DNA of 46,627 nt, from contig JAQWHO010000178.1 of the NCBI GenBank assembly GCA_029249355.1, positions 1-46,627 of the forward strand, read 5' to 3'. The position numbers and the translations under genes are program-made. This stretch comes from Thalassotalea sp. GTDB taxonomy: Bacteria > Pseudomonadota > Gammaproteobacteria > Enterobacterales > Alteromonadaceae. This document shows, piece after piece, positions 23,381 through 41,834 of the stretch (positions are counted from its first letter, which is position 1; each line of letters opens with the position of its first letter). The notes under the pieces are model-generated. The model saw only the letters and a list, made by a program, of their open reading frames with translations. It made no database searches and was not told where the DNA came from.

Positions 23381-23414
23381 TTGTCACAAAAGTGTCATCT
23401 TTTGTCGGCACAAT
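23381..23414 (+). promoter_or_regulatory. Pho box and -10 of the porin promoter
   Basis: TTGTCAC-AAAA-GTGTCAT (23381-23398), 10 bp, CACAAT (23409-23414). Confidence 0.85.
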
Positions 23415-23456: not shown

Positions 23457-24383
23457 ATGAAACTTTCATATAGCACTCTGGCTACAGCATTATTAGCCAC
23501 AATATCTGTGTCGTCATTTGCTGCCGATGTAACTATTTATGGTAAAGCAAATGTTTCAGTTCAATCTTCTGACGAAGGCGAAGGTTCTTTTACAGAAATT
23601 AAAAGTAATGCCTCACGCATTGGCTTTAAAGGTACTCATGAATTATCAGATGGCTTATCTGTCGTTTACAAAGCTGAATTTCAAGTAGATTTAGATGGTG
23701 ATTCAGCAAAAGGTGACAGCATTACTGACCGTAATCAGTATGTAGGTTTAAAAGGCAATTTTGGTGAAGTATTGCTAGGTAATAATGATACTGTATTAAA
23801 GCAGTCTCAAGGAAAAGTAGATTTATTTAGCGATTTAAATGGTGATATTAAAAGCTTATGGAAAGGTGAAAACCGTATGGCTGATACTATTACTTTTAAA
23901 TCTAAAAAATTCAACCAATTTCAGTTTGGTATGACGTATGTTGCTGAAGATAGTGTTGATGGTGAAGATGCTACCTCTCTTGCGGTAACTTATGGTGATG
24001 CCGAGCTTAAGAAATCTAAATTTTATGCGGCAGTTGCGATTGATTCAGAAATGAAAGGCTACGATGTTACCCGTGCAACATTTCAAGGTAAGTTAGCAGG
24101 TTTCACTTTAGGTGCTATGTTACAAACTCAAGAAGAAGTATCGTCTGGAAAAGAAATGGATGGTTTCCTTGCTTCTGCAAAATACTCAATCGACAACTGG
24201 TCTTTAAAAGCACAAATGCAAACCGCCAATTTCGATGGTGGTGATGATAAGTCAGGCGTAACGGTTGGTGCAGATTATAAACTTGCTAAAAATACAAAGT
24301 TGTATGGTTTCTACACGACATTTGACATGGACAGTGGTGCTGATGAAGATTATTTAGCAGCAGGTATTGAATATAAATTTTAA
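23457..24383 (+). CDS. Gram-negative trimeric porin, predicted phosphate-starvation induced
   Basis: Signal peptide; VTIYGKANVS, SNASRIGFKG, RNQYVGLKGNFGEV; C-terminal GIEYKF; upstream Pho box. Confidence 0.92.
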   Translation: MKLSYSTLATALLATISVSSFAADVTIYGKANVSVQSSDEGEGSFTEIKSNASRIGFKGTHELSDGLSVVYKAEFQVDLDGDSAKGDSITDRNQYVGLKGNFGEVLLGNNDTVLKQSQGKVDLFSDLNGDIKSLWKGENRMADTITFKSKKFNQFQFGMTYVAEDSVDGEDATSLAVTYGDAELKKSKFYAAVAIDSEMKGYDVTRATFQGKLAGFTLGAMLQTQEEVSSGKEMDGFLASAKYSIDNWSLKAQMQTANFDGGDDKSGVTVGADYKLAKNTKLYGFYTTFDMDSGADEDYLAAGIEYKF

Positions 24384-24554: not shown

Positions 24555-25256
24555 ATGAACAGACAGATTTTAGTTGTTGAAGATGAAACACCGATCAGGG
24601 AAATGATCACCTTTGTGTTGGAACAAAATGGTTTTAATACTATTGAAGCTGAAGATTATGAAGAAGCTAAGTCAAAAATAGTTGAGCCTTACCCCGACCT
24701 AATTTTACTTGATTGGATGCTTCCTGGTGGCACCGGTGTTAAGTTAGCAAAAACATTAAAGCAAAATGAATATACTCGTTCAATTCCTATTATCATGCTT
24801 ACTGCACGCGCTGATGAAGATGATAAAGTAAAAGGTTTTGATGTTGGGGTTGATGATTATGTGACTAAACCATTTTCACCGAAAGAATTAATCGCTCGAA
24901 TTAAGGCTGTTATTCGTCGCGTTTCACCAACAGCGCTTGAAGAAGCCATTGAGTTTCATGGTATGAAGCTTGATCCTGTCGCTCATCGTGTTTCTATTAA
25001 TGAAAGAGCTTTAGATTTAGGTCCTACAGAATTTAGACTCCTACATTTTTTTATGACTCATACAGAAAGGGTTTATAGTCGCGAACAATTATTAGATAAT
25101 GTTTGGGGCACAAATGTTTATGTTGAAGACAGAACGGTAGATGTTCACATTAGACGATTACGAAAAGCTATTGCCGGTGAAGGTCATGAAGACTTTATTC
25201 AAACTGTTCGTGGCTCGGGTTATCGTTTCTCTGGCAAAATAAAAATGAGTATCTAA
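24555..25256 (+). CDS. phoB: Phosphate regulon response regulator PhoB
   Basis: [65 protein letters not shown]. Confidence 0.97.
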
Positions 25257-25267
25257 AGTTCGAATAT

Positions 25268-26572
25268 ATGTTTTTTCGTTTATCTGCAAGAACCATAATT
25301 AGCCGCTTAATCGTTATTTTAGCATTAAGTGCTGCTGTTGGCTTTTTAGTCGGCAATACTTTTTTATTTGTTGCGCTTAGCGCGGTAACTATTTTAGTTT
25401 GGCATTATCATCATTTATTTAAATTAATAACATGGTTGTGGCGCAGTAAAGCGATATCCCCTCCTGAATCTGAAGGTGTGTGGGGTAGAATATATGATGG
25501 TCTTTATCATCAAACAAAAAAACATCGTAAAAAGCAAAAAGTATTAAATGCAAAAATTCGTCAATTTAGAGATGGGGCTGAAGCATTACCCGACGCTGCG
25601 CTTGTTTTATCTGACGAGCTCATCATTGAATGGGGAAATAAAAAGGCGCAACGCCTTTTAGGTATTCGCTGGCCGGGTGATATTGGTCAACGCATTGATA
25701 ACTTATTACGTTTTCCCGAATTTAGTCAGTACCTTGAAGATGCGAATTTTGAATCACCTTGTCATATCCCTTCACCAATAAACGGCGAAGTTATATTAGA
25801 GTTAAGGTTGATGGCTTATGGGACAGAACAAGTCTTATTTCTTGCTAGAGATGTTAGTAAAGTTCATCGACTTGAAGAAATGCGTCGCGATTTTGTGGCT
25901 AATGTTTCACATGAATTAAAAACCCCCCTTACCGTGGTGCGTGGTTATGTTGAAATGGTACAAATGACAGAGCATGCCTTAGACCCTTACTGGCAAAAAG
26001 TCTTTAATACCATGGAAACGCAAGTTTCAAGAATGGATCGCCTTGTAGAGCAACTTCTTATACTTTCTCGTGTAGAAATAAATATTGATGAAGATGATAA
26101 ACAATTAATTGATATGCCAAAGTTGATTCATGCCTTAGTTGAAGATAGTAAATGGCTCAACCAAGATAAAAACCATCAAATAACAGCCAATATTGATGAT
26201 CATCTTGCTATCGAAGGTATTGATAGCGAAATTAAAAGTGCATGCTTAAATTTAATTTCTAATGCGATAAGTTATACCCAAGAAAGCGGCAATATTCATA
26301 TTTCATGGCAAATGGATGGTAATAAAGCGAAGTTCTCTGTTAAAGATGATGGTCCAGGTATTCGTCCTGAAAATGTTAATAGAATCACTGAGCGATTCTT
26401 TCGTGTGGATAAATCGAGATCGCGTGACACAGGTGGTTCAGGTTTAGGCTTGGCGATTGTGAAACATGTGCTCAATCATCATCATGCTGAGTTATCTATT
26501 AATTCTAAGTGGGGAGCGGGAAGTGAATTTATTATTTACTTTGACCCCAAGTGTATCCGCACACTTTCTTAA
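25268..26572 (+). CDS. phoR: Phosphate regulon sensor kinase PhoR
   Basis: FRDGAEALPDA, PAS domain, RRDFVANVSHELKTPLTV, ERFFRVDKSRSRDTGGSGLGLAIVKH. Confidence 0.96.
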   Translation: MFFRLSARTIISRLIVILALSAAVGFLVGNTFLFVALSAVTILVWHYHHLFKLITWLWRSKAISPPESEGVWGRIYDGLYHQTKKHRKKQKVLNAKIRQFRDGAEALPDAALVLSDELIIEWGNKKAQRLLGIRWPGDIGQRIDNLLRFPEFSQYLEDANFESPCHIPSPINGEVILELRLMAYGTEQVLFLARDVSKVHRLEEMRRDFVANVSHELKTPLTVVRGYVEMVQMTEHALDPYWQKVFNTMETQVSRMDRLVEQLLILSRVEINIDEDDKQLIDMPKLIHALVEDSKWLNQDKNHQITANIDDHLAIEGIDSEIKSACLNLISNAISYTQESGNIHISWQMDGNKAKFSVKDDGPGIRPENVNRITERFFRVDKSRSRDTGGSGLGLAIVKHVLNHHHAELSINSKWGAGSEFIIYFDPKCIRTLS

Positions 26573-26733: not shown

Positions 26734-26789
26734 TTGTCACATAAGTGTCATAAACTTTAAATATAATTGTCATATTAGCTTTATATAGT
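26734..26789 (+). promoter_or_regulatory. Four-unit Pho box array and -10 of pstS
   Basis: TTGTCAC (26734), GTGTCAT (26745), TTTAAAT (26756), TTGTCAT (26767), 10 bp, TATAGT (26784). Confidence 0.9.
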
Positions 26790-26857
26790 GTTCGCAAATT
26801 AACAAGGTTATACCAATAAATAATGAATTTGGTATACAACTCTCATTGGAGAATAAT

Positions 26858-27817
26858 ATGAGTATCAAACGTGCATTAGGCATTATTGGTTTAGCAAGTA
26901 TGGTGAGCTTTTCATCAGTAGCGATAGATAAAGATTTACCTGTTTATAAAAAAGTCAGTGGTGTTTCAGGTAATGTCTCTTCAGTTGGTTCTGATACATT
27001 AGCAAACATGATGACATTTTGGGCGGAAGAGTTTAAACGTACTTATCCTAACGTGAATGTACAAATTCAAGCGGCAGGTTCTTCTACTGCTCCACCGGCA
27101 TTAACTGAAGCCACTTCAAACTTAGGGCCAATGAGTCGTAAAATGAAGTCTCGCGAAATTGAAGCCTTTGAAAAACGTTACGGTTACAAGCCTACAGCGG
27201 TTCGTGTAGCCATTGATGCCTTAGCTGTTTTTGTTCATAAAGATAACCCATTAAAAGGTTTACGCATCGATCAAGTAGATGCCATTTTTTCTAACAATCG
27301 CAAATGTGGTGCAGAAAAAGAAGTGGATCGTTGGGGTGACTTAGGACTTACTGGTGAGTGGACAGGTAAAGATATTCAATTATACGGCCGCAACTCAGTT
27401 TCAGGTACTTATGGATACTTTAAGAAAAAAGCTTTATGTAAAGGTGATTTTAAAAACAATGTAAATGAGCAACCAGGTTCTGCATCTGTTGTTCAATCAG
27501 TTTCAGCATCATTAAACGGTATTGGTTATTCTGGCATTGGTTATCAAACATCTGGTGTTCGTGCTTTACCTCTTTCAAAGAAGGGTGACAACTTTGTTGA
27601 AGCAAATATGGCGAATGCTGTTTCTAAGAAATATCCATTATCTCGCTTCTTATATGTTTATGTTAACAAGCACCCAAACAAGCCATTAGCGCCAATGGAA
27701 GCAGAATTTTTGAAAATGGTATTATCACAATCAGGTCAAAAAATTGTAGAAAAAGATGGTTATATTCCTTTACCTAACTCGGTTGTTGAAAAAGAATACA
27801 AAAAGTTAGGTTTATAA
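26858..27817 (+). CDS. pstS: Phosphate-binding periplasmic protein (PstS family)
   Basis: ATG 26858 after GGAGA; [49 protein letters not shown]. Confidence 0.95.
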
Positions 27818-27945: not shown

Positions 27946-28023
27946 CTGTCATATTACTGTCATTCTTTAGCAACAAAAACTACATATTTCTAAAACATTT
28001 CTGTCATTTTTCATCAGTAGGAT
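27946..28023 (+). promoter_or_regulatory. Extended Pho box array and -10 of the lipoprotein-TBDT operon
   Basis: CTGTCAT-ATTA-CTGTCAT (27946-27963), three degenerate units in phase, CTGTCAT at 28001 (5x11 bp later), 10 bp, TAGGAT (28018). Confidence 0.9.
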
Positions 28024-28068
28024 AGCTACAACTTTTTTAAAAACTATTTATCTTCGGAGCAAAAAGAA

Positions 28069-29670
28069 ATGCAAATGAAATCACTATTCAAAGTAAGCGC
28101 GATCGCTTGTGCTTTAACATTAGTTGGTTGTGGTGGCGATATTCAAATTACGCCGACTGTTAACGATAACAGTACAACAACTGATAACAGTGTAAGTAAC
28201 TCAAATAACACTTCTAATGAAGGTACAACAGAGCCAGTTGAGTGTTCAAGTTATGAAACTGATGCAGGAACAGTAGAAGGTTCATTTGATGGTTTAGATT
28301 GTTTATATAATGATTCATTCGCCAGCAAAAATATTTCTATTACTGCAAACCTTACTTTTGAAGAGTTACCTGATGGCGGCATTCATGTTTTTGAAGATGC
28401 GTTACTAATTGGTGAAGATGGCCGCACTGATGAAGGGTTTGTAGTGCCGGTAAATGGTCCAACAATGACGGTAAAACCTGGCGCTACTTTAGCGTTTACG
28501 TCTGGTGAAGCGATTGTTCGTATCGCCCGTGGCGCAAAAATTCAAGCGGTAGGTACAGCTGAAAAACCAGTAACGTTTACTTCTGCATTTGCTTATGATC
28601 GTCATGATCTTGAAGGTAAAGGTGCACAGTATGCAGATTGGGGCGGAATTATCATTAATGGTAATGGCTTAACTAACCAATGTACTAATGCTCAGCGTGC
28701 TGCAGATACCTGTAACGTTGGCTCTGAAGGTATTACAAGTTACTTCGGCGGTAACGACAATGAAGACAGTAGCGGTAAAATCAAATGGGCAAAAATTTGG
28801 TACGCAGGTTCTGGTCCTCGTGTAGGTGGTGAAGGTGACGATTTAAATTCTCTTACACTAAATGCTGTTGGTTCAGGTTCTTCTTTTGATTACCTTCATA
28901 TTCACCAAGGATTTGATGACGGTATTGAATTTTTTGGTGGCGCTTCAAATATCAAGCATATTGTAGTTACAGATACTCAAGATGATGCCATTGATGTTGA
29001 TGCTGGGTGGAAGGGTAATGCACAGTTCTTATTTATTCAACACGGTACAGTAACAACACGTGACGGCGCTACTGCTTTTATGGGCAATAACGGCTTTGAA
29101 ACTGATGGTGAGAAAAATGGTGGTGATGATTACAGTGAAGTGCCAGCTTCATTCCCAACCATTGCTAACGTAACGGTTATTACAACGGATGGTGCATCGG
29201 TTCGTGATGAAGATCCTTCACAAGCGCATAAGTTTGATGATGCAATTAAAACGAATTACTACAACTCATTAGCGATTAAAACTGACTCATCGAATGGAAC
29301 AGACTGTATTGAGTTTAAATCTGATGGTTTAAAAAATGCCGCTGAAATCAAGTTCAATAATTCAGTATTAGCATGTTCAAGCGAGTTTAAAGATGCGACT
29401 CAAATGCCGGCAGAAATGTCAGTTGAGCAATGGTATGAAAACGGTGGCATTAACCAGCGAGTTGGTGGTGATGCAGACGTATTATCTGCAGATGGTTTCT
29501 CAACTAATTCAGCGTCTACGGCTATTACTATTTCTGCGAACGATTTATCAGACTTAGATTCAAGCTTTTTCGACACAGTTGATTTCATTGGTGCTGTATC
29601 AGACCAAGACACAAGTTCAGCTTGGTACAAGTGGGTAGAAGCAGCAGTAACTGCAGCTAACAACGACTAA
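28069..29670 (+). CDS. Acidic outer-membrane lipoprotein with predicted parallel beta-helix (possibly ElpS-like); function unknown
   Basis: Lipobox LVGC; S/T/N-rich linker; TVKPGATLAF, AVGTAEKPVTFTS, DWGGIII, DDGIEFFGG, DDAIDVDAGW, NNGFETDG rung-like motifs; C-terminal FIGAV. Confidence 0.75.
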   Translation: MQMKSLFKVSAIACALTLVGCGGDIQITPTVNDNSTTTDNSVSNSNNTSNEGTTEPVECSSYETDAGTVEGSFDGLDCLYNDSFASKNISITANLTFEELPDGGIHVFEDALLIGEDGRTDEGFVVPVNGPTMTVKPGATLAFTSGEAIVRIARGAKIQAVGTAEKPVTFTSAFAYDRHDLEGKGAQYADWGGIIINGNGLTNQCTNAQRAADTCNVGSEGITSYFGGNDNEDSSGKIKWAKIWYAGSGPRVGGEGDDLNSLTLNAVGSGSSFDYLHIHQGFDDGIEFFGGASNIKHIVVTDTQDDAIDVDAGWKGNAQFLFIQHGTVTTRDGATAFMGNNGFETDGEKNGGDDYSEVPASFPTIANVTVITTDGASVRDEDPSQAHKFDDAIKTNYYNSLAIKTDSSNGTDCIEFKSDGLKNAAEIKFNNSVLACSSEFKDATQMPAEMSVEQWYENGGINQRVGGDADVLSADGFSTNSASTAITISANDLSDLDSSFFDTVDFIGAVSDQDTSSAWYKWVEAAVTAANND

Positions 29671-29687
29671 TCACCCAACTGATTAAT

Positions 29688-29721
29688 AAGGCGCCACGAA
29701 ATGTATTAAAGGCGCCTTTTT
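29688..29721 (+). terminator. Intra-operon hairpin / weak terminator between lipoprotein and TBDT
   Basis: AAGGCGCC-15 nt loop-GGCGCCTTTTT. Confidence 0.55.
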
Positions 29722-29745
29722 ATTGAACTGAATTAGGAAAAAGAA

Positions 29746-32433
29746 ATGACAAATCAACATAAACTCCAAAAGCTCGCTGTTGCTGTGGGGCTAGGTTTGT
29801 TCAGCTATACAAGCGCTGCTATTGCTCAAGAAGAAGAGCAACAGGTGATGGAAGAAGTCGTGGCAAAAGCGACACGTTTGCAAGGAAGTGCGGCGGCGGT
29901 TATTGCTGAACGAAAAAACCAAGCTTTTGTTGCTGATATTCTTGGCGCAGAGCAAATGTCTAGAACAGGTGATAGCGATGCTGCTTCTGCATTGAAGCGA
30001 GTAACAGGTTTAACGCTAGTTGATGATAAGTTTATTTATGTTCGTGGTTTAGGTGAACGCTATTCAAGTGCGAGATTAAATGGCGCAAATATTCCTAGCC
30101 CTGATTTAACACGAAATGTTGTACCTCTTGATATTATTCCTTCAAGTATCATTGAAAGCATGGCGGTGCAAAAAGCGTTTTCTGCAAATATGTCAGCTGC
30201 GTTTGGTGGCGGTGCTATAGATATTCGTACTAAGTCTGTGCCGAGCGATTTCACTTCCAGCATCGAAGTTGGCTTAGCACATGATACGAGTGCAAGCGAT
30301 GGATATACCTATGATCGCCCAAACGGTGGTATTTCAAGCGAATTAAAAAATGCCATTGTTGATTATCGTGGTCGTTTTACCATTGATAATATTATCAAGC
30401 GTTCAAATTTAACCGATACTGACAGCCAAACGGTTTCAGAACAAGCGATTGCTATTAATAACGGTTTATTGGGTTCTTTACCTCGTGATCTGATTATTTC
30501 AGAAGAGTCTTTAGATCCAACATATAACGTGAAAGCCCATATTGGTAATAGCTTTGATGAAAATTATTTTGGTGGACGTTTTGGCTTTTTAGCTTCAATT
30601 GCTTATGAAAATAAGTGGGACTCTGCAGAAAAGAAAACCTCCGTTATCGCTCAAGATATCGCTTCTGATTGTTCAACGTTATTAGCGACGGCAGAAGATG
30701 TTGCAAGTTCTTGTTTTAATACCGTTAAAAATGCCACTGTTACGACTGAAAATGAACGTTATAGTGGTGTATTAAATTTAGGCTATAAACTCGATAATCA
30801 CTCACTTTCATGGAACAACTTATATTTAGTTGATAATGAAGATGAAGTAGAAGTGTCACAAGTTGAAAGTCCAGCAGGTAGTACTGTTTATACCGTTGCA
30901 ACAGACGATAGAGCGAATCGTGTTCATGAATTTGACTATGAAGAACGCACATTGCACGTATCACAATTGCTAGGTCAACATACCTTTGTTGATTACTGGG
31001 GATTAGGGTTTGATTGGCAATATACTCGTTCGAAGGCGAAAACAGACATTCCGTTTAGTGCTAAATTTAACTTCAGAGACAACTTTGAAAACGGTAGTTA
31101 TGCTAATTCGAATATCACTGGCGATGATAACCGAGCAACTTATTCCTACACGGATATGGAAGACAGAGTTAACTCATATGGCGGTAATTTAACATTACCT
31201 GTATATGGTAAAGGCTATGAACTTGAGCTAAAAGCTGGGTATGATTTTTCTGACCGTGGTCGTAATTACACAACTTCAAGTTTTGCTGTTCATAATAAGT
31301 CAGGCTCTGGTGTTGTCATTAATGATGGTTTGCAATCACCATTAGCAAATAGCGGTTATTTGACTGATTCGTTTATTGCAGGTCAACGTATTTTAGTGGA
31401 CTTTAATGAACCTTCAGCACCCGATGCCGATGATTATATTGCCGCGCAAAAAATTGATGCTGCTTATGGGGCATTTGACGTGATTTTAGCTAATCAATAT
31501 CGCGTTAGTGGTGGTGTACGTTACGAAGCGTTTAAACAAACCTCAGTAGGTACTTCAAGTTTAATTTTTGGGAAAGAAGAGCTCGATATCTTTTGGGCAC
31601 CAGAGAAAATAGAAGCGGGTAGTATTAACGCTGACGACTTTTATCCTTCTTTAGCCTTCACTTATTTAGCGAATGAACAATATCAAATTCGTGCAAGTTA
31701 TGGTGAAACAATTGTAAGACCTGATTTACGTGAAGTGGTCCCTGTTGCCTATTTTGATCCCTTAACGGATATTCGCACCTTTGGTCGAGTAGGTTTACAA
31801 AGTAGCCCAATTAAAAATTACGATTTACGTTATGAGTATTATGCCGAGAATGGCAATAGCTATACCGTTGCCGCATTTTTTAAAGACATAGAATCACCCA
31901 TTGAAACGGTTTTACAAGTAGGTGATGAAGATTATTCAGCTACTTTTGTTAACGGTGAAACAGGTGAAGTTAAAGGCGTTGAATTTGAATGGATGGTTGA
32001 CTTAGTTAAAGTCGCTGACGGTTTTTTTACCTCAGGTAATATAACGTTAAGTGATTCAGAAGTGAGCATAGATCCAAGTTTAGCGGGTAACCTAACGAAC
32101 CCAACTAAGCGAATGAGTGGTCATTCAGAATACGTGGTGAATTTACAATTAAACTACGATTCTGCTGACGGCAATCATTCAGGTTCATTAGTATATAACG
32201 TATTCGGTGAGCGTATTATCGCTTCTGGTGTTGGTGGACGAGAGGACGCTCTTGAACAACCATTCCATGCATTAGATTTGGTGTATACCTATTACCCTGA
32301 TTTTAACTCGCAGATTAAATTGAAAGTTAAAAACCTTTTAGATGAATCTCAAGAGGTTACTCAATCAGATATCGCAGTACGAGAAAAAGAAGTAGGCACA
32401 TCCATTAGTTTAACCTATACCTACGACTTTTAA
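29746..32433 (+). CDS. TonB-dependent transporter (Pho-regulated)
   Basis: Signal peptide, TonB box EEVVAKA, plug ALKRVTGLTL...YVRGLGERYS...GGAIDIRT, LKVKNLLD, C-terminal YTYDF. Confidence 0.93.
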   Translation: MTNQHKLQKLAVAVGLGLFSYTSAAIAQEEEQQVMEEVVAKATRLQGSAAAVIAERKNQAFVADILGAEQMSRTGDSDAASALKRVTGLTLVDDKFIYVRGLGERYSSARLNGANIPSPDLTRNVVPLDIIPSSIIESMAVQKAFSANMSAAFGGGAIDIRTKSVPSDFTSSIEVGLAHDTSASDGYTYDRPNGGISSELKNAIVDYRGRFTIDNIIKRSNLTDTDSQTVSEQAIAINNGLLGSLPRDLIISEESLDPTYNVKAHIGNSFDENYFGGRFGFLASIAYENKWDSAEKKTSVIAQDIASDCSTLLATAEDVASSCFNTVKNATVTTENERYSGVLNLGYKLDNHSLSWNNLYLVDNEDEVEVSQVESPAGSTVYTVATDDRANRVHEFDYEERTLHVSQLLGQHTFVDYWGLGFDWQYTRSKAKTDIPFSAKFNFRDNFENGSYANSNITGDDNRATYSYTDMEDRVNSYGGNLTLPVYGKGYELELKAGYDFSDRGRNYTTSSFAVHNKSGSGVVINDGLQSPLANSGYLTDSFIAGQRILVDFNEPSAPDADDYIAAQKIDAAYGAFDVILANQYRVSGGVRYEAFKQTSVGTSSLIFGKEELDIFWAPEKIEAGSINADDFYPSLAFTYLANEQYQIRASYGETIVRPDLREVVPVAYFDPLTDIRTFGRVGLQSSPIKNYDLRYEYYAENGNSYTVAAFFKDIESPIETVLQVGDEDYSATFVNGETGEVKGVEFEWMVDLVKVADGFFTSGNITLSDSEVSIDPSLAGNLTNPTKRMSGHSEYVVNLQLNYDSADGNHSGSLVYNVFGERIIASGVGGREDALEQPFHALDLVYTYYPDFNSQIKLKVKNLLDESQEVTQSDIAVREKEVGTSISLTYTYDF

Positions 32434-32463
32434 TTGTCGTACTCAAATTAATGAATATTTATT

Positions 32464-32489
32464 AAAACCCGTCGAATGACGGGTTTTTT
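32464..32489 (+). terminator. Terminator after the TBDT
   Basis: AAAACCCGTC-GAAT-GACGGGTTTTTT. Confidence 0.92.
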
Positions 32490-32543
32490 ATGTTGAGTCA
32501 TTTATGAGTAAACTTGGCTAAAACATCATAGTGTCGTTCTTAA

Positions 32544-32626
32544 CTGTAAGAAAAATGTCACTTTTTTGTCATTTAATAAAGTTGCAATATTAGTGAAACA
32601 TTAGTGTAACAGTACGTTATTAAAAT
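32544..32626 (+). promoter_or_regulatory. Two Pho-box arrays and -10 of the TonB operon
   Basis: CTGTAAG/ATGTCAC/TTGTCAT at 32544, 32555, 32566; TTGCAAT/GTGAAAC/GTGTAAC at 32582, 32593, 32604; 10 bp; TAAAAT (32621). Confidence 0.75.
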
Positions 32627-32737
32627 TCTTCCCCAGTAATCTATCAAACTAGTTATTAAGATATTTTTTGCTAGTCACTGCGCTATTTAAAACAATGTAA
32701 AAAATAGTGCAAAAACATCTACTTTTAGGGTTTTAAT

Positions 32738-33526
32738 ATGAAAATCACAAAATGGGCACAAGCAGGTTTATTCATAAGCATGTCAGCCTTTTCACTGTAT
32801 GGATATTCTGTTGGGTATAGCACTTCAAATGAAGAGTTGAGTAAAGTGGTTAATGCAGGAAAACAGATCAATCAATCGGCCAATGCTTCCCAACAAAAAG
32901 TCGACTCGATCAGTGAACAAATTCAATCAAAGCTACAACAATTTAAAGTCGTTAATAAAGAAATTGACGGGTTAAATGTTTATAACCGCCAAATGCAGGC
33001 GCAATTAAATAACCAACTGACAGAGCTTGAACAGTTAGCGACTTCCATGGAACAAGTTAGCATTATTGAACGTCAAATTTCACCTTTGATGGCGAGAATG
33101 ATTGATACCTTAGTATCTTTTGTTCAATTAGATGTGCCTTTTTTGCCACAAGAAAGAAGTAAAAGAACTACTGACTTACAAAAACTACTTGAGCAAGCCG
33201 ATGTTTCTGTTGCGGAGAAATTTCGTCGAGTATTAGAAGCTTATCAAGTTGAAGTGGATTACGGCCGTACTATCGAAGTTTATAGCGGTACTCAATTGGT
33301 GGATGGCACAGAAAGAGATGTTGATTTTCTTCGTATTGGCCGTGTGAGCTTTGTTTATCAAACGCGCGACGGTGAGAAAATGGGCATGTGGGATAAAGTG
33401 AGCCAATCATGGCAACCATTACCTGCCGACTACCGCACTGACATTAATAAAGCCCTTCGTATTGCACGTAAGCAGCTTGCACCCGATCTTATTATTGTGC
33501 CAATTGCACAAGATTCAGCAGAATAA
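32738..33526 (+). CDS. DUF3450 protein (TtpB-like accessory of TonB2/3-type systems)
   Basis: Signal + coiled coil; DVPFLPQER, AEKFRRVLEAYQVEVDYGRTI, DFLRIGRV, ARKQLAPDL. Confidence 0.88.
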   Translation: MKITKWAQAGLFISMSAFSLYGYSVGYSTSNEELSKVVNAGKQINQSANASQQKVDSISEQIQSKLQQFKVVNKEIDGLNVYNRQMQAQLNNQLTELEQLATSMEQVSIIERQISPLMARMIDTLVSFVQLDVPFLPQERSKRTTDLQKLLEQADVSVAEKFRRVLEAYQVEVDYGRTIEVYSGTQLVDGTERDVDFLRIGRVSFVYQTRDGEKMGMWDKVSQSWQPLPADYRTDINKALRIARKQLAPDLIIVPIAQDSAE

Positions 33527-33535
33527 GGCTTTATC

Positions 33536-34912
33536 ATGAAAACACTTAATAAATTTTTTACCACGCTTGCACTTTGTTCTTTTGTTATCTCGGCGAATGC
33601 TCAACAAGCAACCAATTTAGACGAGCTTTTAAAGCAACTTGAAAAAGGTCAAATTGCGCAAACACAGCAAAATAAAGATCGTGAAGCAGAATTCTCTGCG
33701 AAAAAATCACAACAAGATACTTTGTTAAAACAAGCCATTACTTCAAGAGAACAAGCGGTTGCCAATAGCACTCAGCTTGAAAATAACTATCAAGTTAATG
33801 AAGTGGATATTGCTAATAAAACAGATGCCTTAAATAAGCGCATGGGTGAATTAAAAGAGCTTTTTGGTGTATTACAACAAGTTGCTGGCGATACACGCAG
33901 CAAGTTTCAAACATCCACTATTTCAGCGCAAATTCCAGGGCGAGGTGAGTTTTTAGATGAATTTGCCCAAAGTATGGGGTCAAGTTCAAAACTTGCTTCT
34001 ATCGAAGAAATTGAACGTCTATGGTTTGAACTACAACGTGAAATGACCGAAAGCGGTAAAGTGCATAAGTTTAGCGCTCAAGTTGTCGCGGCCAATGGTG
34101 AGAAAGTGCAAAGTGACGTGATCCGCGTCGGTGGTTTTAACTTAATCTCTAACGGAAAATATTTAGAATATATTGATGAAACAGGTTCTATCGCCGAGTT
34201 AATTAGACAACCATCAAGTAGATATTTAGATAGTGCAATCCAATTATCGCAAACAAGCGCTGAAGCTGTTCCTTTTGCTTTAGACCCAACAGGTGGCTCA
34301 ATTTTAGGCTTGCTTGTTCAAGCACCTGATACACAAGAGCGCATCGAACAAGGTGGCCCTGTGGGTAATGTGATTATTGCCTTAGGTGTTATTGGATTAT
34401 TAATTGCTTTAGAGCGCTTTATTTCATTATTCCTAATCGGTAACAAAGTTAATCGACAATTAAAAACCACCGTTGCTTCAGACGATAATCCGTTGGGCCG
34501 TGTGATGTTAGTTAAAGATAATAATATTGATGCAGATACTGAAACGCTTGAATTGAAGCTATCTGAACGTATTTTGAAAGAAGTGCCAGTACTAACCAGT
34601 CGATTAACCTTAATTAAAATTGTTTCAGTCATTGCCCCGCTTATTGGTTTATTGGGTACAGTTACTGGGATGATCAACACTTTCCAAGCGATTACCTTAT
34701 TTGGTACCGGTGACCCTAAACTGATGGCAGGCGGTATCTCTCAAGCGCTTGTTACTACTGTGCTTGGCTTAGTGGTTGCCATTCCAATGGTCTTTATTTC
34801 AACCCTTCTTAATACTCGTTCGCGTGGCATTATCAATGTTTTACAACAGCAAAGCGCAGGCATAATTGCCGAAAGGGCAGAGCGTGCTGAAGCTTCTGTA
34901 AAAGGAGCTTAA
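33536..34912 (+). CDS. ttpC: TtpC-type long MotA/TolQ/ExbB proton-channel protein
   Basis: Signal and periplasmic coiled coil; VIRVGGFNL, LDPTGG, QGGPVG, APLIGLLGTVTGMI, MAGGISQALVTT. Confidence 0.88.
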   Translation: MKTLNKFFTTLALCSFVISANAQQATNLDELLKQLEKGQIAQTQQNKDREAEFSAKKSQQDTLLKQAITSREQAVANSTQLENNYQVNEVDIANKTDALNKRMGELKELFGVLQQVAGDTRSKFQTSTISAQIPGRGEFLDEFAQSMGSSSKLASIEEIERLWFELQREMTESGKVHKFSAQVVAANGEKVQSDVIRVGGFNLISNGKYLEYIDETGSIAELIRQPSSRYLDSAIQLSQTSAEAVPFALDPTGGSILGLLVQAPDTQERIEQGGPVGNVIIALGVIGLLIALERFISLFLIGNKVNRQLKTTVASDDNPLGRVMLVKDNNIDADTETLELKLSERILKEVPVLTSRLTLIKIVSVIAPLIGLLGTVTGMINTFQAITLFGTGDPKLMAGGISQALVTTVLGLVVAIPMVFISTLLNTRSRGIINVLQQQSAGIIAERAERAEASVKGA

Positions 34913-34915
34913 ATC

Positions 34916-35443
34916 ATGGTTTTATTCATCGACATGATGAATAGCATTCGTGAATTTCTTGATACTGGCGGTCAAGTATTGACCGTCATCGCTGGTGTTA
35001 TTTGTTTAATGTGGTTACTCATTTTTGAACGTTTATATTTCTTTTTGAAAAGTTATAAAGACATTAGAAATGACATGATCGCCAATTGGCAAAATAGAAG
35101 TGAACGTTATTCATGGAATGCTGAGCAAATTCGTTCGGCACAAGTTTCTCGCATTACTGAGCTGCTAAATAACAATGTCGCTATTATTCAAAGTTTAGTG
35201 GTGCTTTGTCCATTACTTGGTTTATTGGGGACAGTCACCGGCATGATTGAAGTGTTTGATGTCATGGCTATTTCTGGTAGCGGAAATGCACGTTCAATGG
35301 CGTCGGGTGTTTCTCGCGCAACGATTCCTACTATGGCTGGAATGGTGGGTTCTTTGTCAGGCGTTTTCATGGTGACTTGGTTACAAAGAAAAACGAAGCG
35401 TAGAACTGAGCAAATGGAAGATTCATTGCCAATGGCTCATTAG
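34916..35443 (+). CDS. exbB: ExbB proton-channel subunit (short form)
   Basis: LIFER, CPLLGLLGTVTGMIEVF, MASGVSRATIPTMAG. Confidence 0.92.
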   Translation: MVLFIDMMNSIREFLDTGGQVLTVIAGVICLMWLLIFERLYFFLKSYKDIRNDMIANWQNRSERYSWNAEQIRSAQVSRITELLNNNVAIIQSLVVLCPLLGLLGTVTGMIEVFDVMAISGSGNARSMASGVSRATIPTMAGMVGSLSGVFMVTWLQRKTKRRTEQMEDSLPMAH

Positions 35444-35526
35444 CTTTAGTGATTATCAAACCGATTATCAATACTTATTAGCCCTAGTGGTTTTTATTAA
35501 AAGATACAAATGAAAGGATTAAGAAC

Positions 35527-35940
35527 ATGCGTTCTCAATTATCAAAAGTTTTACAAGAGCAAGAAGAAGCCGAAGAAATAAACATGACACCAATGTTAGA
35601 TGTAGTGTTCATCTTATTGATCTTCTTTATTGTTACTGCTTCGTTTGTTAAAGAAGCAGGCATAGAAGTGAACCGTCCAGAAGCGGCGACAGCCGTTAAA
35701 AAAGAACGTGCGAATATCTTAGTCGCCATTAGTGATAAGGGGGATATTTGGATCAATAAACGCAAAGTTGATGTACGTGCGGTGCAGGCGAATATTGAGC
35801 GATTAAAAGCAGAAAATCCACAAGGCACTGTTGTTATTCAGGCAGATCAAAAAGCGACCACAGATATTTTGATTAAAGTGATGGATTCAGCAAGAGCTGC
35901 CGGTGTGTATGACGTATCAATTGCTGCTCAAGAGGTTTAA
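35527..35940 (+). CDS. exbD: ExbD
   Basis: EINMTPMLDVVFILLIFFIVT, VVIQAD, VMDSARAAG. Confidence 0.95.
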   Translation: MRSQLSKVLQEQEEAEEINMTPMLDVVFILLIFFIVTASFVKEAGIEVNRPEAATAVKKERANILVAISDKGDIWINKRKVDVRAVQANIERLKAENPQGTVVIQADQKATTDILIKVMDSARAAGVYDVSIAAQEV

Positions 35941-35948
35941 CAAAACCG

Positions 35949-36608
35949 ATGAATACTAACTTAAACAACACTAATTTAAACAATAGTCGCTTAAATAATT
36001 TCGGGCGATACGGCATTAGCTTCGCTTTATCTATTGCGGTTACGTTTGCATTGTTGTGGAGTATGCAAGCGCTTATTTCCGGTGGTAACGATGTATTAAC
36101 TGAAGCCCCTCGTGGTAATGTTCTTGATTTTATTCGTCTGAAAAAAGAAGAGTCTATTGTTAAAAAAGATCGTAAACCGCAAAAACCACCGCAACCGAAA
36201 CAGCCACCTCCGCAGTTGCAACAACCGCAAATGCAACAAGCTAATCCCAATGTGAATGCGGTTAGTACAAACTTTACTGCGCAGGTCGATAGCGTTTCTG
36301 GTTTAACGGGTGGGATAAGTTTAGGTAGTAGTGATGGTGATTATTTACCGATTGTAAAAGTTGCACCTATATATCCTCGTCGAGCCCAATCAAGAGGTTT
36401 AGAAGGTTATGTCATTGTTGAATTTACCGTAACGAAAAATGGCTCGGTTAAAGATCCTGTCGTGATAGAAGCAAAACCCGAAGGTGTATTTGACCGCGCA
36501 GCGATAGATGCCGCACTTAAATTTAAATATAAACCACGTGTCGTTGATGGCACCCCTGCAGAAGTTGCCGGTGTGCAAAATAAAATTTCATTTGAAATTG
36601 ACGGCTAA
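35949..36608 (+). CDS. tonB: Energy transducer TonB
   Basis: TM anchor, Pro/Gln/Lys-rich linker, PIYPRRAQSRGLEGYVIVEFTV, FDRAAIDAALKFKYKP. Confidence 0.95.
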   Translation: MNTNLNNTNLNNSRLNNFGRYGISFALSIAVTFALLWSMQALISGGNDVLTEAPRGNVLDFIRLKKEESIVKKDRKPQKPPQPKQPPPQLQQPQMQQANPNVNAVSTNFTAQVDSVSGLTGGISLGSSDGDYLPIVKVAPIYPRRAQSRGLEGYVIVEFTVTKNGSVKDPVVIEAKPEGVFDRAAIDAALKFKYKPRVVDGTPAEVAGVQNKISFEIDG

Positions 36609-36632
36609 ATATAAAAATACGGAGGAGAACTT

Positions 36633-37928
36633 ATGAAAAATTTATATATTTCAATGTTAGCTCTGGGAAGCTTTTACTTATTACCAGTAACAATTGACGA
36701 TATTTCAACAAGCTATGCGGCTGAAGTAGCTGAACCGATTAAACAGTCGGTAAAGGTACCAGCAATGCGTAACCGTGTTTATGCACAATTAGCGAGAGCA
36801 CAAAAATTGGCAGATGAAGGTGTTAAACTTGAAGGGTTTGACGTGCTTGATGAAGTTAAAGACCGTATTGATAGCTTAAATAGCTATGAAAAAGCCATGT
36901 TATGGAATTTTTATGGCTTTATGTATTACGGAAATGATGATTTGGCTTCGGCGATAGATAGCTTTCAAAACGTAATTGCTGAAGTGGCGATCCCTCAACC
37001 GCTACGTTTATCGACGTTATATTCATTAGCGCAGTTATCAATGCAACAGCAAAATTATAGTGAAACTTTGTCATACCTTAAGCAATGGCAACAAATTAAC
37101 ACCAAAGAATTAACCGCTGAACAGCATATATTATTTGCTCAAGTGTATTATCAAGACAAACAATTTGAACCTTCACTAATGGCAATCAATAAAGCGATCA
37201 ATGAAGTGACGATGAAAAATAAGTTACCAAAAGAAAATTGGTTGATTTTACAGCGGGCTAATTATTACGAATTAAAGCAACCTAAAAAAGTGACAGAAGT
37301 ACTTGAAGCACTCGTTAAGCATTATGAGAAACCAGAGTATTGGTTACAGCTTAGCGGTATGTACGGTGAAATTGGCAACGAAGAAAAGCAGTTAGCGGCT
37401 ATGGAAACTGCATGGCAAGCAGGATATATAACTAAGTCTCAAGATATTGTTACGTTAGCGCAATTATATCGCTTTAACGGGGTGCCATATAAAGCGGCAA
37501 AATTATTAAATAATGCGATATCTGAAGGGAAGATTGTTGCGAATGAACGTCATTATGAAATGTTAGCACAATCTTATTTAGCAGCTAAAAATGACAAAGA
37601 GGCAATTCCAGCATTAATCAAAGCGAGTGAAATTACTGAATCTGGCAAATTTGACGCGCAATTAGCGCAAGCTTATTTAAATACCGAGAAATGGCAATTA
37701 GCGATTAAATCAGCGGATAGTGCCTTAAATAGAGGTGGCATAGAAAGGGTTGGTGATATGCACCTTGTTATTGGTATGAGCTACTTTAATTTAGAACAGT
37801 TTGAGCAATCGTTAGCAGCGCTTAAAAATGCTGAAAAAATTTCCAGCTCTGCAAAAGTCGCTACACAATGGTATAAATATGTTAAGCGTGAACAAGTTCA
37901 GCATGCGCAATTAGCGATGTTAAATTAG
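36633..37928 (+). CDS. Periplasmic TPR protein (TtpD-like)
   Basis: Signal peptide and repeated TPR-like helices; last gene of the ttpB-ttpC-exbB-exbD-tonB cluster. Confidence 0.85.
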   Translation: MKNLYISMLALGSFYLLPVTIDDISTSYAAEVAEPIKQSVKVPAMRNRVYAQLARAQKLADEGVKLEGFDVLDEVKDRIDSLNSYEKAMLWNFYGFMYYGNDDLASAIDSFQNVIAEVAIPQPLRLSTLYSLAQLSMQQQNYSETLSYLKQWQQINTKELTAEQHILFAQVYYQDKQFEPSLMAINKAINEVTMKNKLPKENWLILQRANYYELKQPKKVTEVLEALVKHYEKPEYWLQLSGMYGEIGNEEKQLAAMETAWQAGYITKSQDIVTLAQLYRFNGVPYKAAKLLNNAISEGKIVANERHYEMLAQSYLAAKNDKEAIPALIKASEITESGKFDAQLAQAYLNTEKWQLAIKSADSALNRGGIERVGDMHLVIGMSYFNLEQFEQSLAALKNAEKISSSAKVATQWYKYVKREQVQHAQLAMLN

Positions 37929-38074: not shown

Positions 38075-38530
38075 TTAATGTTTATACAAAAACGATTGAA
38101 TGCTTTTCATATTTTCATCAGTAAAGTTGGGGTTTGGGATCTGGATTATTGTTCTTTCTTTTAAATTTGCCCGTTCAATATCTTTCTAATAATACTTATC
38201 TAATATTGCTTTCATTTCTCCACTTTCTAATAGTTTATCTAAGCCTAATTGTAATCGTTGGCTTAATCTAGGTTCATTTTTTGAGACATATACAGGGAAT
38301 ATAGGTAAATATAAAGCAATGTTAGGTTCAACGACTACATTTTCTAAATTGTCTTGACGTATTTGTAACTCATCATAAACTTCGTGAATAGCACGAGAAA
38401 GATAATCAAATCGAGATTTATCTAACATTAAAAATACCCCTTCAAAGATACTTGTTTCCATGATCTTCATATTTAACTCATTAAACACCAATTTACGCCT
38501 GTCACATTTTTGTATATCTCTAAAAAGCAC
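38075..38530 (-). pseudogene. Decayed extracellular solute-binding (family 3-like) protein gene, C-terminal remnant
   Basis: FEGVFLMLDKSRFDYLSRAIHEVYDEL...YVSKNEPRLSQRLQLGL...ILDKYY*KDIERANLKERTIIQIPNPNF...LYKH*: in-frame TAG at 38188-38186, natural stop at 38077-38075; no N-terminal half or signal peptide. Confidence 0.75.
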
Positions 38531-39316: not shown

Positions 39317-40201
39317 ATGACAAAACCTACTATAGGTTTCATAGGCCTTGGCCTTATGGGCGGCAACATGGTTGAAAATCTTCAAAAACGTGGCTTTAAA
39401 GTAAATGTAATGGATCTTAATAAAGATGCTGTTACGAAGGTTCTTGCTCGTGGCAATGCTACTGAAGTTTCTTCAGGTAAAGAGTTAGCTGAAAAAAGTG
39501 ACATCGTGATGCTTGCGCTTACGACTTCTGCAGTAGTTGAATTAGTTGTTTATGCTGAAGACGGTATTTTAGCAGGCATGTCTGAAGGCAAAACATTAAT
39601 TGATTTTGGTACTTCTATTCCTGCTTCTACACGTCAAATTGGTGCTGACCTTGCTAAAAAGGGTGCAGGCATGATTGACGCTCCTTTAGGTCGTACTCCT
39701 GCTCACGCTAAAGATGGTTTATTAAACATTATGGCTGCGTGTGATATTGATACATTTAATAAAGTTAAGCCTGTTCTTGACGAGCAAGGCGAAAACGTAT
39801 TCCACCTTGGTGCACTTGGTGCGGGTCACACAACTAAGTTAATTAATAATTTTATCGGTATGACTACGGTTACTGCTATGTCACAAGCTTTTGCTGTTGC
39901 TAAAGCTGCTGGTGTTGATGGTCAACAATTGTTTGACATTATGTCAGCAGGCCCATCTAACTCGCCATTTATGCAGTTCTGTAAGTTCTATGCTGTAGAC
40001 GGTGATGAAAAGTTAGGTTTCTCTGTAGCTAATGCAAACAAAGATCTTGGTTACTTCAACCAAATGGTTCAGGATTTAGGCTCTGAGTCTTTAATTGCTC
40101 AAGGTACTTCAGCTAACTTACAAGCTGCTGTAGATGCCGGTTTAGGTCAAAACGATGTACCGGTAATTTTCGACTACTTTAATACTCAGTTAGAGAAGTA
40201 A
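39317..40201 (+). CDS. NAD(P)-dependent beta-hydroxyacid dehydrogenase (3-hydroxyisobutyrate / tartronate semialdehyde reductase family)
   Basis: IGFIGLGLMGG, IDFGTS, IDAPLGR, GAGHTTKLINN (catalytic Lys), KDLGY. Confidence 0.9.
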   Translation: MTKPTIGFIGLGLMGGNMVENLQKRGFKVNVMDLNKDAVTKVLARGNATEVSSGKELAEKSDIVMLALTTSAVVELVVYAEDGILAGMSEGKTLIDFGTSIPASTRQIGADLAKKGAGMIDAPLGRTPAHAKDGLLNIMAACDIDTFNKVKPVLDEQGENVFHLGALGAGHTTKLINNFIGMTTVTAMSQAFAVAKAAGVDGQQLFDIMSAGPSNSPFMQFCKFYAVDGDEKLGFSVANANKDLGYFNQMVQDLGSESLIAQGTSANLQAAVDAGLGQNDVPVIFDYFNTQLEK

Positions 40202-40455
40202 TTCGAATATATCATGCTTCGGTTAATGTTGGTATTAATTGACTGAAGTCGGATTAGTTTAATAGATGAAGTTTTAACTTGTTATAATTTCTAGTGTTTA
40301 CTTGATTAGGTTCAAATTGAGTGATTACCGACAATGGCTTTATCTATTGAACAAAAATAAATTTAAGTGCTCGCGTACTAAAATAGTCTTATTAAAGTTT
40401 GATGACTTTATAAGCAGTTAAGATGATTAAAATTAAATGGATTTAATGTTTTTAT

Positions 40456-40481
40456 AGCCTCTCATTGAGAGGCTTTTTTTT
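40456..40481 (+). terminator. Rho-independent terminator
   Basis: AGCCTCTCA-T-TGAGAGGCT followed by a long T run. Confidence 0.88.
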
Positions 40482-40800
40482 GCCTGAAATTATGTGCGCC
40501 ACTGTTTATTTAATGGATCTAGCTATAACTATTAACAGAGGACTTATAATTAATAGCTTCTAATTAATAGCTAATGATAAATAAGTGTTTGATAGGAAAG
40601 TGCTTGATAAAAACTTACGGAGCCTTATGAACCATATATAGCGTTTAATCAGGCTGGTAATAAGAAATATGACTCAACTATACGATAGTAGTGTTATGGG
40701 TATACAGACACAGTCTGGATTGATTTATGAGGGAGTAAAGAAAACAGTGAAAGCAGGGCAAGAGTTTAACTCAATCGTTAACTTAAATACTGTAACTAAC

Positions 40801-41538: not shown

Positions 41539-41688
41539 GGGAGTACCTTTTTGAAAATTCTATTTTTAAAACAAAAAACACATATTATCGCCATCTGTAA
41601 ACATTGGCAAAATATATCTTACCGTTACCTTGTTTAAATAACTATTACAATACATATTTCTAATTCACTGTAAAGACTACATTAAATT

Positions 41689-41769
41689 ATTGGTAATAAC
41701 AAATATTATTGGTAAAGATGTAATTGGTAAAATAAGTGATTGACAATTGGTTAGGTGATTGGTTAAATT
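41689..41769 (+). promoter_or_regulatory. TBDT promoter with five ATTGGT(A/T)A operator half-sites
   Basis: ATTGGTAA at 41689, 41708, 41723; ATTGGTTA at 41746, 41758; TTGACA at 41740-41745; -10-like TAAATT at 41764. Confidence 0.7.
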
Positions 41770-41834
41770 TAGTTGATATTGCTGTATATAGGTAAATTGT
41801 TCAGCTAACAAAATATAAAATCCAACTGGGGGAG

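What the first reader, a model, noticed from the sequence alone, without database searches (positions are those of the whole stretch)
27946..37928. Top candidate: PhoB-controlled lipoprotein + TonB-dependent transporter + dedicated six-gene TonB motor for phosphorus scavenging
Seen: directly after phoBR-pstS lie an uncharacterised 533-aa lipoprotein and an 895-aa TBDT under the strongest Pho box of the window (CTGTCAT-ATTA-CTGTCAT). They are followed by a full DUF3450/TtpC/ExbB/ExbD/TonB/TPR operon with its own Pho boxes. No Fur box, siderophore gene, CAZyme or phosphatase is in the cluster. Known: TBDTs usually carry iron, B12 or glycans, and Pi itself crosses via porins (one is encoded upstream). 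P-starvation-induced lipoprotein/TBDT pairs have been reported in Caulobacter (ElpS) and Flavobacterium (Pus), with substrates largely unresolved as far as I recall. Inference: an energised, SusCD-analogous uptake system for a large or scarce P source (polyphosphate, nucleic-acid fragments, phytate, phospholipid or phosphonate polymers, or mineral-bound P) with a private motor.
Basis: partly seen in the sequence, partly recalled or inferred. Interest (0 to 1): 0.85.

Follow-up and report, generated by a model that had tools for sequence, protein, structure and literature searches.

The report
Phosphate-starvation importer with its own motor
This marine bacterium carries a known but unsolved gene pair (an ElpS-family lipoprotein and its TonB-dependent outer-membrane transporter) that is likely switched on by phosphate starvation, and beside it a second, separately Pho-boxed energy-motor operon that tends to be gained and lost with the pair across its family, so the whole unit likely pumps a phosphorus-bearing molecule into starved cells.

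Summary
Observation confirmed. The Pho box at 27946 is the only perfect one in the 3.47-Mb assembly; the motor operon has three in-phase half-sites of its own. The pair is not new: the lipoprotein is homologous (28% over 437 aa) to a protein with ElpS's published lipobox, Asn38 and synteny, and the transporters also align. Caulobacter's pair is PhoB-regulated, and a 'lid' role is already proposed in print. The six-gene Ttp/TonB layout is known from Vibrio. The scan has noted this module before on other DNA, once with a motor.

Added here: (1) the motor is a distinct paralog. In 136 near-complete family genomes it occurs in 100 of 111 with the lipoprotein and 0 of 25 without. It keeps a Pho box (31/38 linked, 10/15 more distant copies), whereas the universal paralog does not (1/25). 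(2) The predicted beta-helix carries about eight highly conserved carboxylates, including two DDxx(D/E) motifs, probably a metal site. (3) No phosphatase or nuclease recurs among the neighbours examined. Best guess: energised capture of inorganic or short-chain phosphate. Cargo, binding and regulation in this organism are untested.

The parts
23381..23398 (+). Pho-box-like repeat before the porin (3 mismatches)
23457..24383 (+). Gram-negative porin (context; Pho-boxed)
   Evidence: Porin_4
24555..25256 (+). phoB
   Evidence: TIGR02154 above cut-off
25268..26572 (+). phoR
   Evidence: TIGR02966 and NF008235 above cut-off
26734..26751 (+). Pho-box-like repeat before pstS (further in-phase half-site at 26767)
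26846..27817 (+). pstS phosphate-binding protein
   Evidence: TIGR02136 above cut-off
27946..27963 (+). perfect Pho box CTGTCAT-ATTA-CTGTCAT, the only 0-mismatch copy in the assembly
28001..28023 (+). third perfect half-site in 11-bp phase, followed 10 bp later by a -10-like TAGGAT
   Evidence: promoter role inferred
28069..29670 (+). ElpS-family lipoprotein: lipid Cys21, conserved CGGDI peptide, flexible linker, predicted right-handed beta-helix (52-533) with a conserved carboxylate cluster (D258, D283, D284, E287, D305, D306, D309, E344, D346)
29746..32433 (+). cognate TonB-dependent transporter; EEVV TonB-box-like motif; own clade
32464..32487 (+). terminator-like hairpin plus T run after the TBDT
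32544..32572 (+). three in-phase Pho half-sites heading the motor operon
   Evidence: conservation
32738..33526 (+). ttpB (DUF3450), window-type clade
33536..34912 (+). ttpC (long ExbB)
34916..35443 (+). exbB
35527..35940 (+). exbD
35949..36608 (+). tonB
36633..37928 (+). ttpD (TPR protein), window-type clade

Best explanation
The lipoprotein, its transporter and the six-gene TonB operon likely form a PhoB-induced, proton-powered outer-membrane importer that would capture a small phosphorus-bearing anion, most likely inorganic phosphate or short polyphosphate, through metal bridges on the lipoprotein. Steps: (1) PhoB turns on two transcription units, lipoprotein-TBDT and ttpB-ttpC-exbB-exbD-tonB-ttpD (boxes shown; regulation inferred, and shown only for the Caulobacter pair). 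(2) The lipoprotein is tethered by Cys21 and a flexible linker at the cell surface (surface location shown for ElpS, inferred here). (3) Its beta-helix groove binds Ca/Mg through two DDxx(D/E) motifs and nearby carboxylates, and the metal holds the phosphate (fold predicted, conservation shown, binding inferred). (4) It docks on the outer face of the cognate TBDT (predicted for the Bacteroides homologue; not tested here). (5) The Pho-boxed Ttp motor opens the plug and the cargo reaches periplasmic PstS without a dedicated hydrolase (inferred). A second motor would be useful because phosphorus demand far exceeds iron demand (own knowledge).
For: Boxes at <=3 mismatches upstream of the lipoprotein in 39 of 60 loci and of ttpB in 31 of 38, against 14 of 448 other neighbouring genes and 0 of 60 TBDT genes; G000 background 24 of 1078. 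Window-type ttpB copies outside the 60 fetched loci: 10 of 15 boxed; universal paralog 1 of 25; the G000 paralog has none (6 mismatches). Co-occurrence in 151 genomes: both 108, lipoprotein only 14, motor only 2 (both incomplete MAGs), neither 27; among the 136 near-complete ones 100/11/0/25. In 11 genera with both states, every genome lacking the lipoprotein also lacks this motor. In two neighbouring families, 3 of 4 genomes with the window-type ttpC have the lipoprotein, beside it in two; the miss is 74% complete. Caulobacter CCNA_00169/00170 rise from about 400-2500 to about 130,000-320,000 reads in a pstS mutant, stay low in phoB mutants and are in the direct PhoB regulon (PMC11208175 supplements). 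ElpS is iron-independent and surface-exposed (PMC2996285). Flavobacterium FI is 18.7% of the Pi-depleted exoproteome. Across 328 domains from 151 diverse proteins: D283 0.97, D284 0.97, E287 0.96, D305 0.97, D306 0.90, D309 0.97, E344 0.95, D346 0.87, E at 258 0.89, R or K at 390 0.93. Cognate TBDTs form their own clade (97 distant ones score 339-914; other G000 TBDTs <=78) with invariant arginines R105, R401, R506, R662, R695, R823 (outgroup of <=3 sequences, so weak). Recurrent neighbours are phoBR (20/60), pstS (14/60) and the motor (39/60); no phosphatase, nuclease or phytase family recurs among the flanking genes scanned, and 30 long homologues are fused only to T9SS tails and PKD/Ig/LTD-type domains, unlike PusCD loci, which sit with phosphatases.
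Against: No cargo was measured here or in the papers read. Pi crosses porins and PstS binds it tightly, and I recall no TBDT for Pi (own knowledge). The mature lipoprotein is strongly acidic (pI 4.1; 79 D/E against 28 K/R), which suits a cation as well. The window protein has D at 390, where the family has R/K (K388 is nearby; register uncertain). ElpS deletion left supernatant phosphatase unchanged, the 2010 paper found cc0171 constitutive and saw no change in intracellular phosphate. BT4055/BT4056 had no clear phenotype in 519 fitness experiments, and their predicted complex had few confident contacts. Caulobacter exbB/exbD are in an earlier direct PhoB list but were not regulated in the 2024 data. 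11 of 111 near-complete genomes with the pair lack the motor. Only 58 of 75 neighbour families were scanned, some others, and absent neighbours do not exclude distant hydrolases. Genomes are related, so the counts overstate independence.
Confidence: 0.45

Rival explanations
1. Same regulation and motor, but the cargo is organic. The lipoprotein is a metal-dependent surface enzyme (phosphodiesterase or lyase) or binder for phosphate-containing polymers (nucleic acid, teichoic-acid-like or phosphorylated polysaccharide, lipid head groups), and the TBDT imports the fragments.
For: The carboxylate cluster is as conserved as an active site. PL9 lyases, in the fold list (1ru4 Z 18.3, 5olq Z 17.4), bind Ca through Asp residues on successive coils, with a Lys base (PMC6627557); that the PL9 motif reads DDGxD is recalled. 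The phi29 gp12 beta-helix (3gq7, Z 17.6) digests wall teichoic acid (PMC9863714 passage). Lidbury et al. suggested glycan binding or hydrolysis. ElpS is released from the cell by proteolysis, as suits an exoenzyme.
Against: Z values of 16-21 are shared by dozens of unrelated beta-helices at 6-14% identity. The position that I take to match the PL9 lysine is Glu (E344, 0.95). ElpS had no pNPP activity. No processing enzymes recur nearby or in fusions.
Confidence: 0.25
2. The system imports a metal (Ca, Fe, Zn or a lanthanide) needed by Pho-induced phosphatases, with the acidic lipoprotein as a metal collector.
For: pI 4.1 and a carboxylate-only core. ElpS overproduction raised phosphatase activity without ElpS being a phosphatase. 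The top VIA match is the NosDFY complex (7o0y chain A, Z 21.3, tied with tailspikes); that this chain is the copper-handling NosD is recalled.
Against: Ca and Mg are millimolar in seawater (own knowledge). A conserved basic residue lies at 390 and the TBDT has invariant arginines. No Fur-like box. No PhoX found in G000, which is 84% complete.
Confidence: 0.17
3. The TBDT and motor export or anchor the lipoprotein, which acts as an adhesin or mineral-surface protein rather than as a lid.
For: CGG(G)DI follows the lipid cysteine in 59 of 60 family proteins, then a variable linker. One to five tandem domains and PKD/Ig/T9SS fusions resemble adhesins. ElpS reaches the surface without the T2SS. A TBDT needed for protein secretion is known (PMC6434023, search listing only). 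Price et al. note that the export route in Proteobacteria is unexplained.
Against: T9SS-tailed forms have their own export route. Deleting cc0171 did not stop ElpS production (surface location not reported there). The predicted BT4056 contact is on the outer face.
Confidence: 0.08
4. The motor is a general Pho-regulon or housekeeping TonB system that merely lies beside the pair.
For: It has its own promoter behind a terminator. It directly follows the TBDT in only 24 of 60 loci. G000 has at least 27 TBDT barrels over the cut-off. The pair exists without it.
Against: 0 of 25 near-complete genomes without the lipoprotein keep it, while all keep the other paralog. Service to other Pho-regulated TBDTs as well is not excluded.
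Confidence: 0.15

Closest known systems
ElpS (CC0170/CCNA_00169) with TBDT CC0171/CCNA_00170, Caulobacter crescentus (PMC2996285: parts 1-4 of 6 read, supplements unreadable; PMC11208175: passages, supplement 3 hits, supplement 4 whole)
   Same: Lipoprotein then TBDT, same order; homology to the ElpS-matching protein of G586 (28%/437 aa, E 1e-38) and of its TBDT (27%/884 aa); Pho control; cargo unknown.
   Different: Followed by T2SS genes in Caulobacter and Xanthomonas (gspD/E/F homologues in 50-52 of 80 loci), by a Ttp-TonB motor here. Release by a protease is not tested here.
Flavobacterium johnsoniae FI/FII/FIII (Fjoh_3856/0546/4889) with TBDTs Fjoh_3857/0545, and Bacteroides BT4056/BT4055 (PMC8115612 passages; bioRxiv 10.1101/2023.03.17.533168 parts 1-2 of 3 and passages)
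   Same: Papers place them in the ElpS family with a pectin-lyase fold; FII lies in a phoBR-porin cluster like this one; Pi-specific induction; lid role predicted; pair in 621 genera, 171 of them Proteobacteria.
   Different: Not aligned directly here (Bacteroidota homologues were seen as plasmid hits). No private motor is mentioned in the passages read.
Vibrio TonB2/TonB3 systems: TtpB-TtpC-ExbB-ExbD-TonB-TtpD (PMC6957404: part 1 of 8)
   Same: Identical six-gene order and domain types.
   Different: TonB2 is iron-regulated and TonB3 serum-induced. The window's TPR protein is only 23-26% identical to Vibrionaceae copies. It belongs to a separate paralog with a conserved Pho box and no Fur-like box.
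PusCD1/2 of F. johnsoniae (bioRxiv 10.64898/2026.09.03.749221: abstract, outline and a term search)
   Same: Precedent that a TBDT plus surface lipoprotein imports a phosphorus compound (phosphatidylinositol-derived) under P limitation.
   Different: SusC/SusD-type proteins with neighbouring phosphatases; no such homology or neighbours here.

Membership tests
ElpS / FI-FIII / BT4056 lipoprotein-TBDT pair | Sequence homology to ElpS | tested here: met
   G586 protein with LAGC at 17-20 and Asn38, as published for ElpS, before a TBDT and gspD-G; 28% over 437 aa. It is identified as ElpS or a near orthologue by these features, not by name.
ElpS / FI-FIII / BT4056 lipoprotein-TBDT pair | Lipobox and no other recognised domain | tested here: met
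   LVG-C21; no family
ElpS / FI-FIII / BT4056 lipoprotein-TBDT pair | Pectin-lyase-like beta-helix | tested here: met
   AlphaFold pLDDT 87.8; VIA Z up to 21.3, rmsd 3.8, 296 aligned; a prediction
ElpS / FI-FIII / BT4056 lipoprotein-TBDT pair | Adjacent cognate TBDT of the same clade | tested here: met
   60 of 60 loci; homology
ElpS / FI-FIII / BT4056 lipoprotein-TBDT pair | Induced by Pi starvation via PhoB; surface-exposed | not testable with these tools
   Boxes present and conserved; expression and location not measured
ElpS / FI-FIII / BT4056 lipoprotein-TBDT pair | [quoted passage not shown] | not tested
   The complex predictor was not available
Vibrio-type six-protein Ttp-TonB system | ttpB-ttpC-exbB-exbD-tonB-ttpD order and domains | tested here: met
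Vibrio TonB2 proper | Iron/Fur regulation | tested here: not met
   Best Fur match 9 of 19 mismatches; Pho half-sites instead; sequence scan only
SusCD / PusCD | SusD-family lipoprotein and SusC-type TBDT | tested here: not met
   No SusD or SusC model hit; beta-helix fold instead. It may still work like a lid.
PL9 / GH28 beta-helix enzymes | Sequence-level family match and catalytic constellation | tested here: inconclusive
   No Pfam or PDB sequence hit; fold shared at about 14% identity; Asp motifs look similar, base position differs; no coordinates to superpose

The most novel reading that the evidence does not exclude
Alteromonad marine bacteria run an active, TonB-powered pump for inorganic phosphate or short polyphosphate across the outer membrane. 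A Ca-loaded beta-helix lipoprotein is the collector, and a dedicated PhoB-controlled six-protein motor powers it. This would be phosphate uptake energised at the outer membrane, by a pair reported from over 600 genera.
Probability: 0.25. Interest if true: 0.85.

Novelty: new variant of a known kind. Interest (0 to 1): 0.45.

Why it matters
The ElpS pair is among the most strongly phosphate-induced surface systems in Caulobacter and Flavobacterium and is very widespread (4947 clusters at 50% identity; 122 of 151 family genomes), yet its cargo was unresolved in every paper read here. This locus gives two handles: a motor that can be deleted without touching the housekeeping TonB paralog, and a short list of conserved carboxylates to mutate. 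A TonB motor paralog tied to the Pho regulon was not found in my searches (open-access library only).

Tried and rejected
Complex prediction of lipoprotein with TBDT: tool not available; no result. ESM Atlas unreachable. No RNA holder listed for this stretch. PDB sequence searches found no relative of the lipoprotein or the TBDT. Foldseek gave no lipoprotein match at E<=0.001, and the TBDT model matched only generic TBDTs at 9-13% identity, so no cargo can be read from structure. PF28492 is not in the local Pfam. ElpS supplements were unreadable; the GP12 primary paper is not held. The sigma-70 scan gave fewer sites than shuffles (29 against 49) and was not used. Fusion search: repeats and surface-display domains only. 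Passages searched in PMC7190382, PMC1790865 and PMC12872454 held nothing on this locus. Rejected: SusD/PusD identity; Fur control; conserved adjacency to phoBR as the defining feature; an obligatory motor. Ocean-abundance claims were not tested.

Full report
Setting. The window is contig C178 of a 3.47-Mb, 84%-complete assembly. The closest named homologues of the lipoprotein are from Thalassotalea (87-90%), in a family that includes Colwellia, Pseudoalteromonas, Alteromonas and Idiomarina.

Observation. The Pho pattern has 10 matches at up to 3 mismatches in the window against 3.1 expected; four of them sit before the porin, pstS, the lipoprotein and DUF3450. The lipoprotein's box is the only perfect one in the assembly, and the same scan picks up pstC on another contig, a positive control. 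The motor operon follows a terminator-like hairpin and has three in-phase half-sites. No Fur-like box precedes either unit (consensus recalled).

The pair is known. The lipoprotein has homologues in 122 of 151 family genomes as one-, two- or three-domain forms, in 39 of 401 phylum genomes (two of these are signal-peptide-only matches), and in 4947 clusters at 50% identity. I fetched 20 kb around 60 of the 122 (40 high-scoring single-domain, 20 multi-domain; not a random draw). The cognate TBDT follows in 60 of 60, the motor is within the stretch in 39, phoBR in 20, pstS in 14. In 80 mostly Caulobacterales/Xanthomonas loci a TBDT homologue is present in 76, T2SS genes in about 50 and the motor in none; this is the arrangement drawn for ElpS (PMC2996285). 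One Caulobacter relative, G586, encodes a protein with ElpS's published LAGC at 17-20 and Asn38. It aligns with the window protein at 28% over 437 residues, and its TBDT at 27% over 884. In Caulobacter both genes are strongly PhoB-dependent (I map cc0170/cc0171 to CCNA_00169/00170 from the neighbouring gsp numbers, and one search confirms CCNA_00170). Flavobacterium FI-FIII and Bacteroides BT4056 are placed in the same family in print, and a lid role was predicted for BT4056 with few confident contacts and no phenotype. The scan's own notes list this module in at least eight other genomes; I treat them as leads only.

The motor. The six-gene order is that of Vibrio TonB2/TonB3. Almost every family genome has one such operon (150 of 151), and G000 has two. 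The TPR protein separates the window-type paralog (E <= 7e-75) from the others (E >= 3e-58 as best hit). Crossing searches gives both 108, lipoprotein only 14, motor only 2, neither 27; for the 136 near-complete genomes 100, 11, 0, 25 (lists transcribed by hand, and nine negatives deduced from their absence in the positive list). Eleven genera contain genomes with both and genomes with neither; two genera lose the lipoprotein where the motor was already absent, and three have the pair without the motor in some or all members. A Pho box at <=3 mismatches lies before window-type ttpB in 31 of 38 linked copies and in 10 of 15 further copies (one had only 54 bp upstream, one is probably a third clade), but in only 1 of 25 copies of the universal paralog (40 copies picked from the listed matches). 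So the motor looks like a Pho-regulon paralog nested within the distribution of the pair. It is dedicated in the sense of co-retention, not required, and possibly shared with other Pho-regulated TBDTs. Against novelty: Caulobacter exbB/exbD were in an earlier direct PhoB list, though not regulated in later data, and one earlier scan note describes a similar motor.

The lipoprotein. The model is a right-handed beta-helix from residue 52 (pLDDT 87.8), matching NosDFY, tailspikes, alginate epimerases and lyases about equally (Z 16-21), which shows fold only. Across 328 domains, carboxylates at 258, 283, 284, 287, 305, 306, 309, 344 and 346 are 87-97% conserved, with Arg/Lys at 390 in 93%. They fall at or just before strands of successive coils; that they line one face is inferred, as I had no coordinates. 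This pattern resembles the Ca sites of beta-helix lyases (motif recalled). A CGG(G)DI peptide follows the lipid cysteine in 59 of 60 proteins. Thirty long homologues carry only repeats and display domains.

Mechanism. Regulation, abundance in homologues, a cognate TBDT and a co-retained motor point to energised uptake under phosphate starvation. The choice of cargo is inference. Loci for polymers or phosphodiesters usually carry their hydrolases, as PusCD loci do. Here none recurs among the flanking genes scanned (a few single lipases and one sulfatase-family protein were seen), while pstS and, in the closest relatives, the porin do. I therefore favour inorganic or short-chain phosphate held by metal bridges (0.45), ahead of an organic polymer with a possibly catalytic lipoprotein (0.25), metal import for phosphatases (0.17) and an export/adhesin role (0.08). 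The general-motor rival (0.15) concerns only the motor and is compatible with any cargo. Results against the best reading are the acidic surface, D390 in this protein, the absence of mutant phenotypes in print and the 2010 report of a constitutive cc0171. Binding of the two proteins could not be modelled here.

Verdict. A real, well-supported Pho-boxed locus; a member of the ElpS-TBDT family; a new variant through its Pho-boxed Ttp motor paralog. Interest 0.45. Unseen supplements of PMC2996285 and of the bioRxiv papers may bear on the ElpS sequence and on the BT4056 contact counts.

Noticed in passing
L266 (NZ_OX359244.1, Alteromonas macleodii plasmid pBGP9) 4790-24137: The whole rdgC-kinase-phoBR-pstS-oxygenase-lipoprotein(3 domains)-TBDT-Ttp motor block lies on a 239-kb record annotated as a plasmid, beside a Tn3 transposase: possible mobilisation of the P-scavenging unit, or a misassembly.
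   Followed up: partly
L042:5994-6815, five further loci and L266:11003-11794: A 2OG-Fe(II) oxygenase (PF13640) sits directly upstream of the lipoprotein in 6 of 60 loci and on the plasmid; role unknown.
   Followed up: no
window 28129-28170: Invariant CGG(G)DI peptide after the lipid cysteine, in a region predicted disordered; Caulobacterales have CG(G)A/S-x-x-V/I-x-SPG at the same place. Possible export signal or barrel-binding strand.
   Followed up: partly
G000 C126:15554 and C331:4082: Strong Pho-like boxes (1 and 2 mismatches) before a 257-aa protein that looks like an EAL domain (by eye, not scanned) and an uncharacterised 370-aa protein.
   Followed up: no
window 39317-45143: Separate locus: 6PGD/3-hydroxyisobutyrate-dehydrogenase-like gene, GntR/FCD regulator and a 1102-aa TIGR01782 TBDT; probably carbon uptake, unrelated.
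   Followed up: no
window 38186-38530: Short 114-aa fragment resembling a family-3 solute-binding protein, possibly a remnant.
   Followed up: no
G082, G016, G146, G108, G071: A third Ttp paralog clade (TPR 32-33% identical) occurs in a few genomes; regulation not examined.
   Followed up: no
H26 (LR745206.1, 635-kb 'uncultured phage') 80284-81012: A lipoprotein homologue on a very large phage record; two small faecal 'phage' contigs also match.
   Followed up: no
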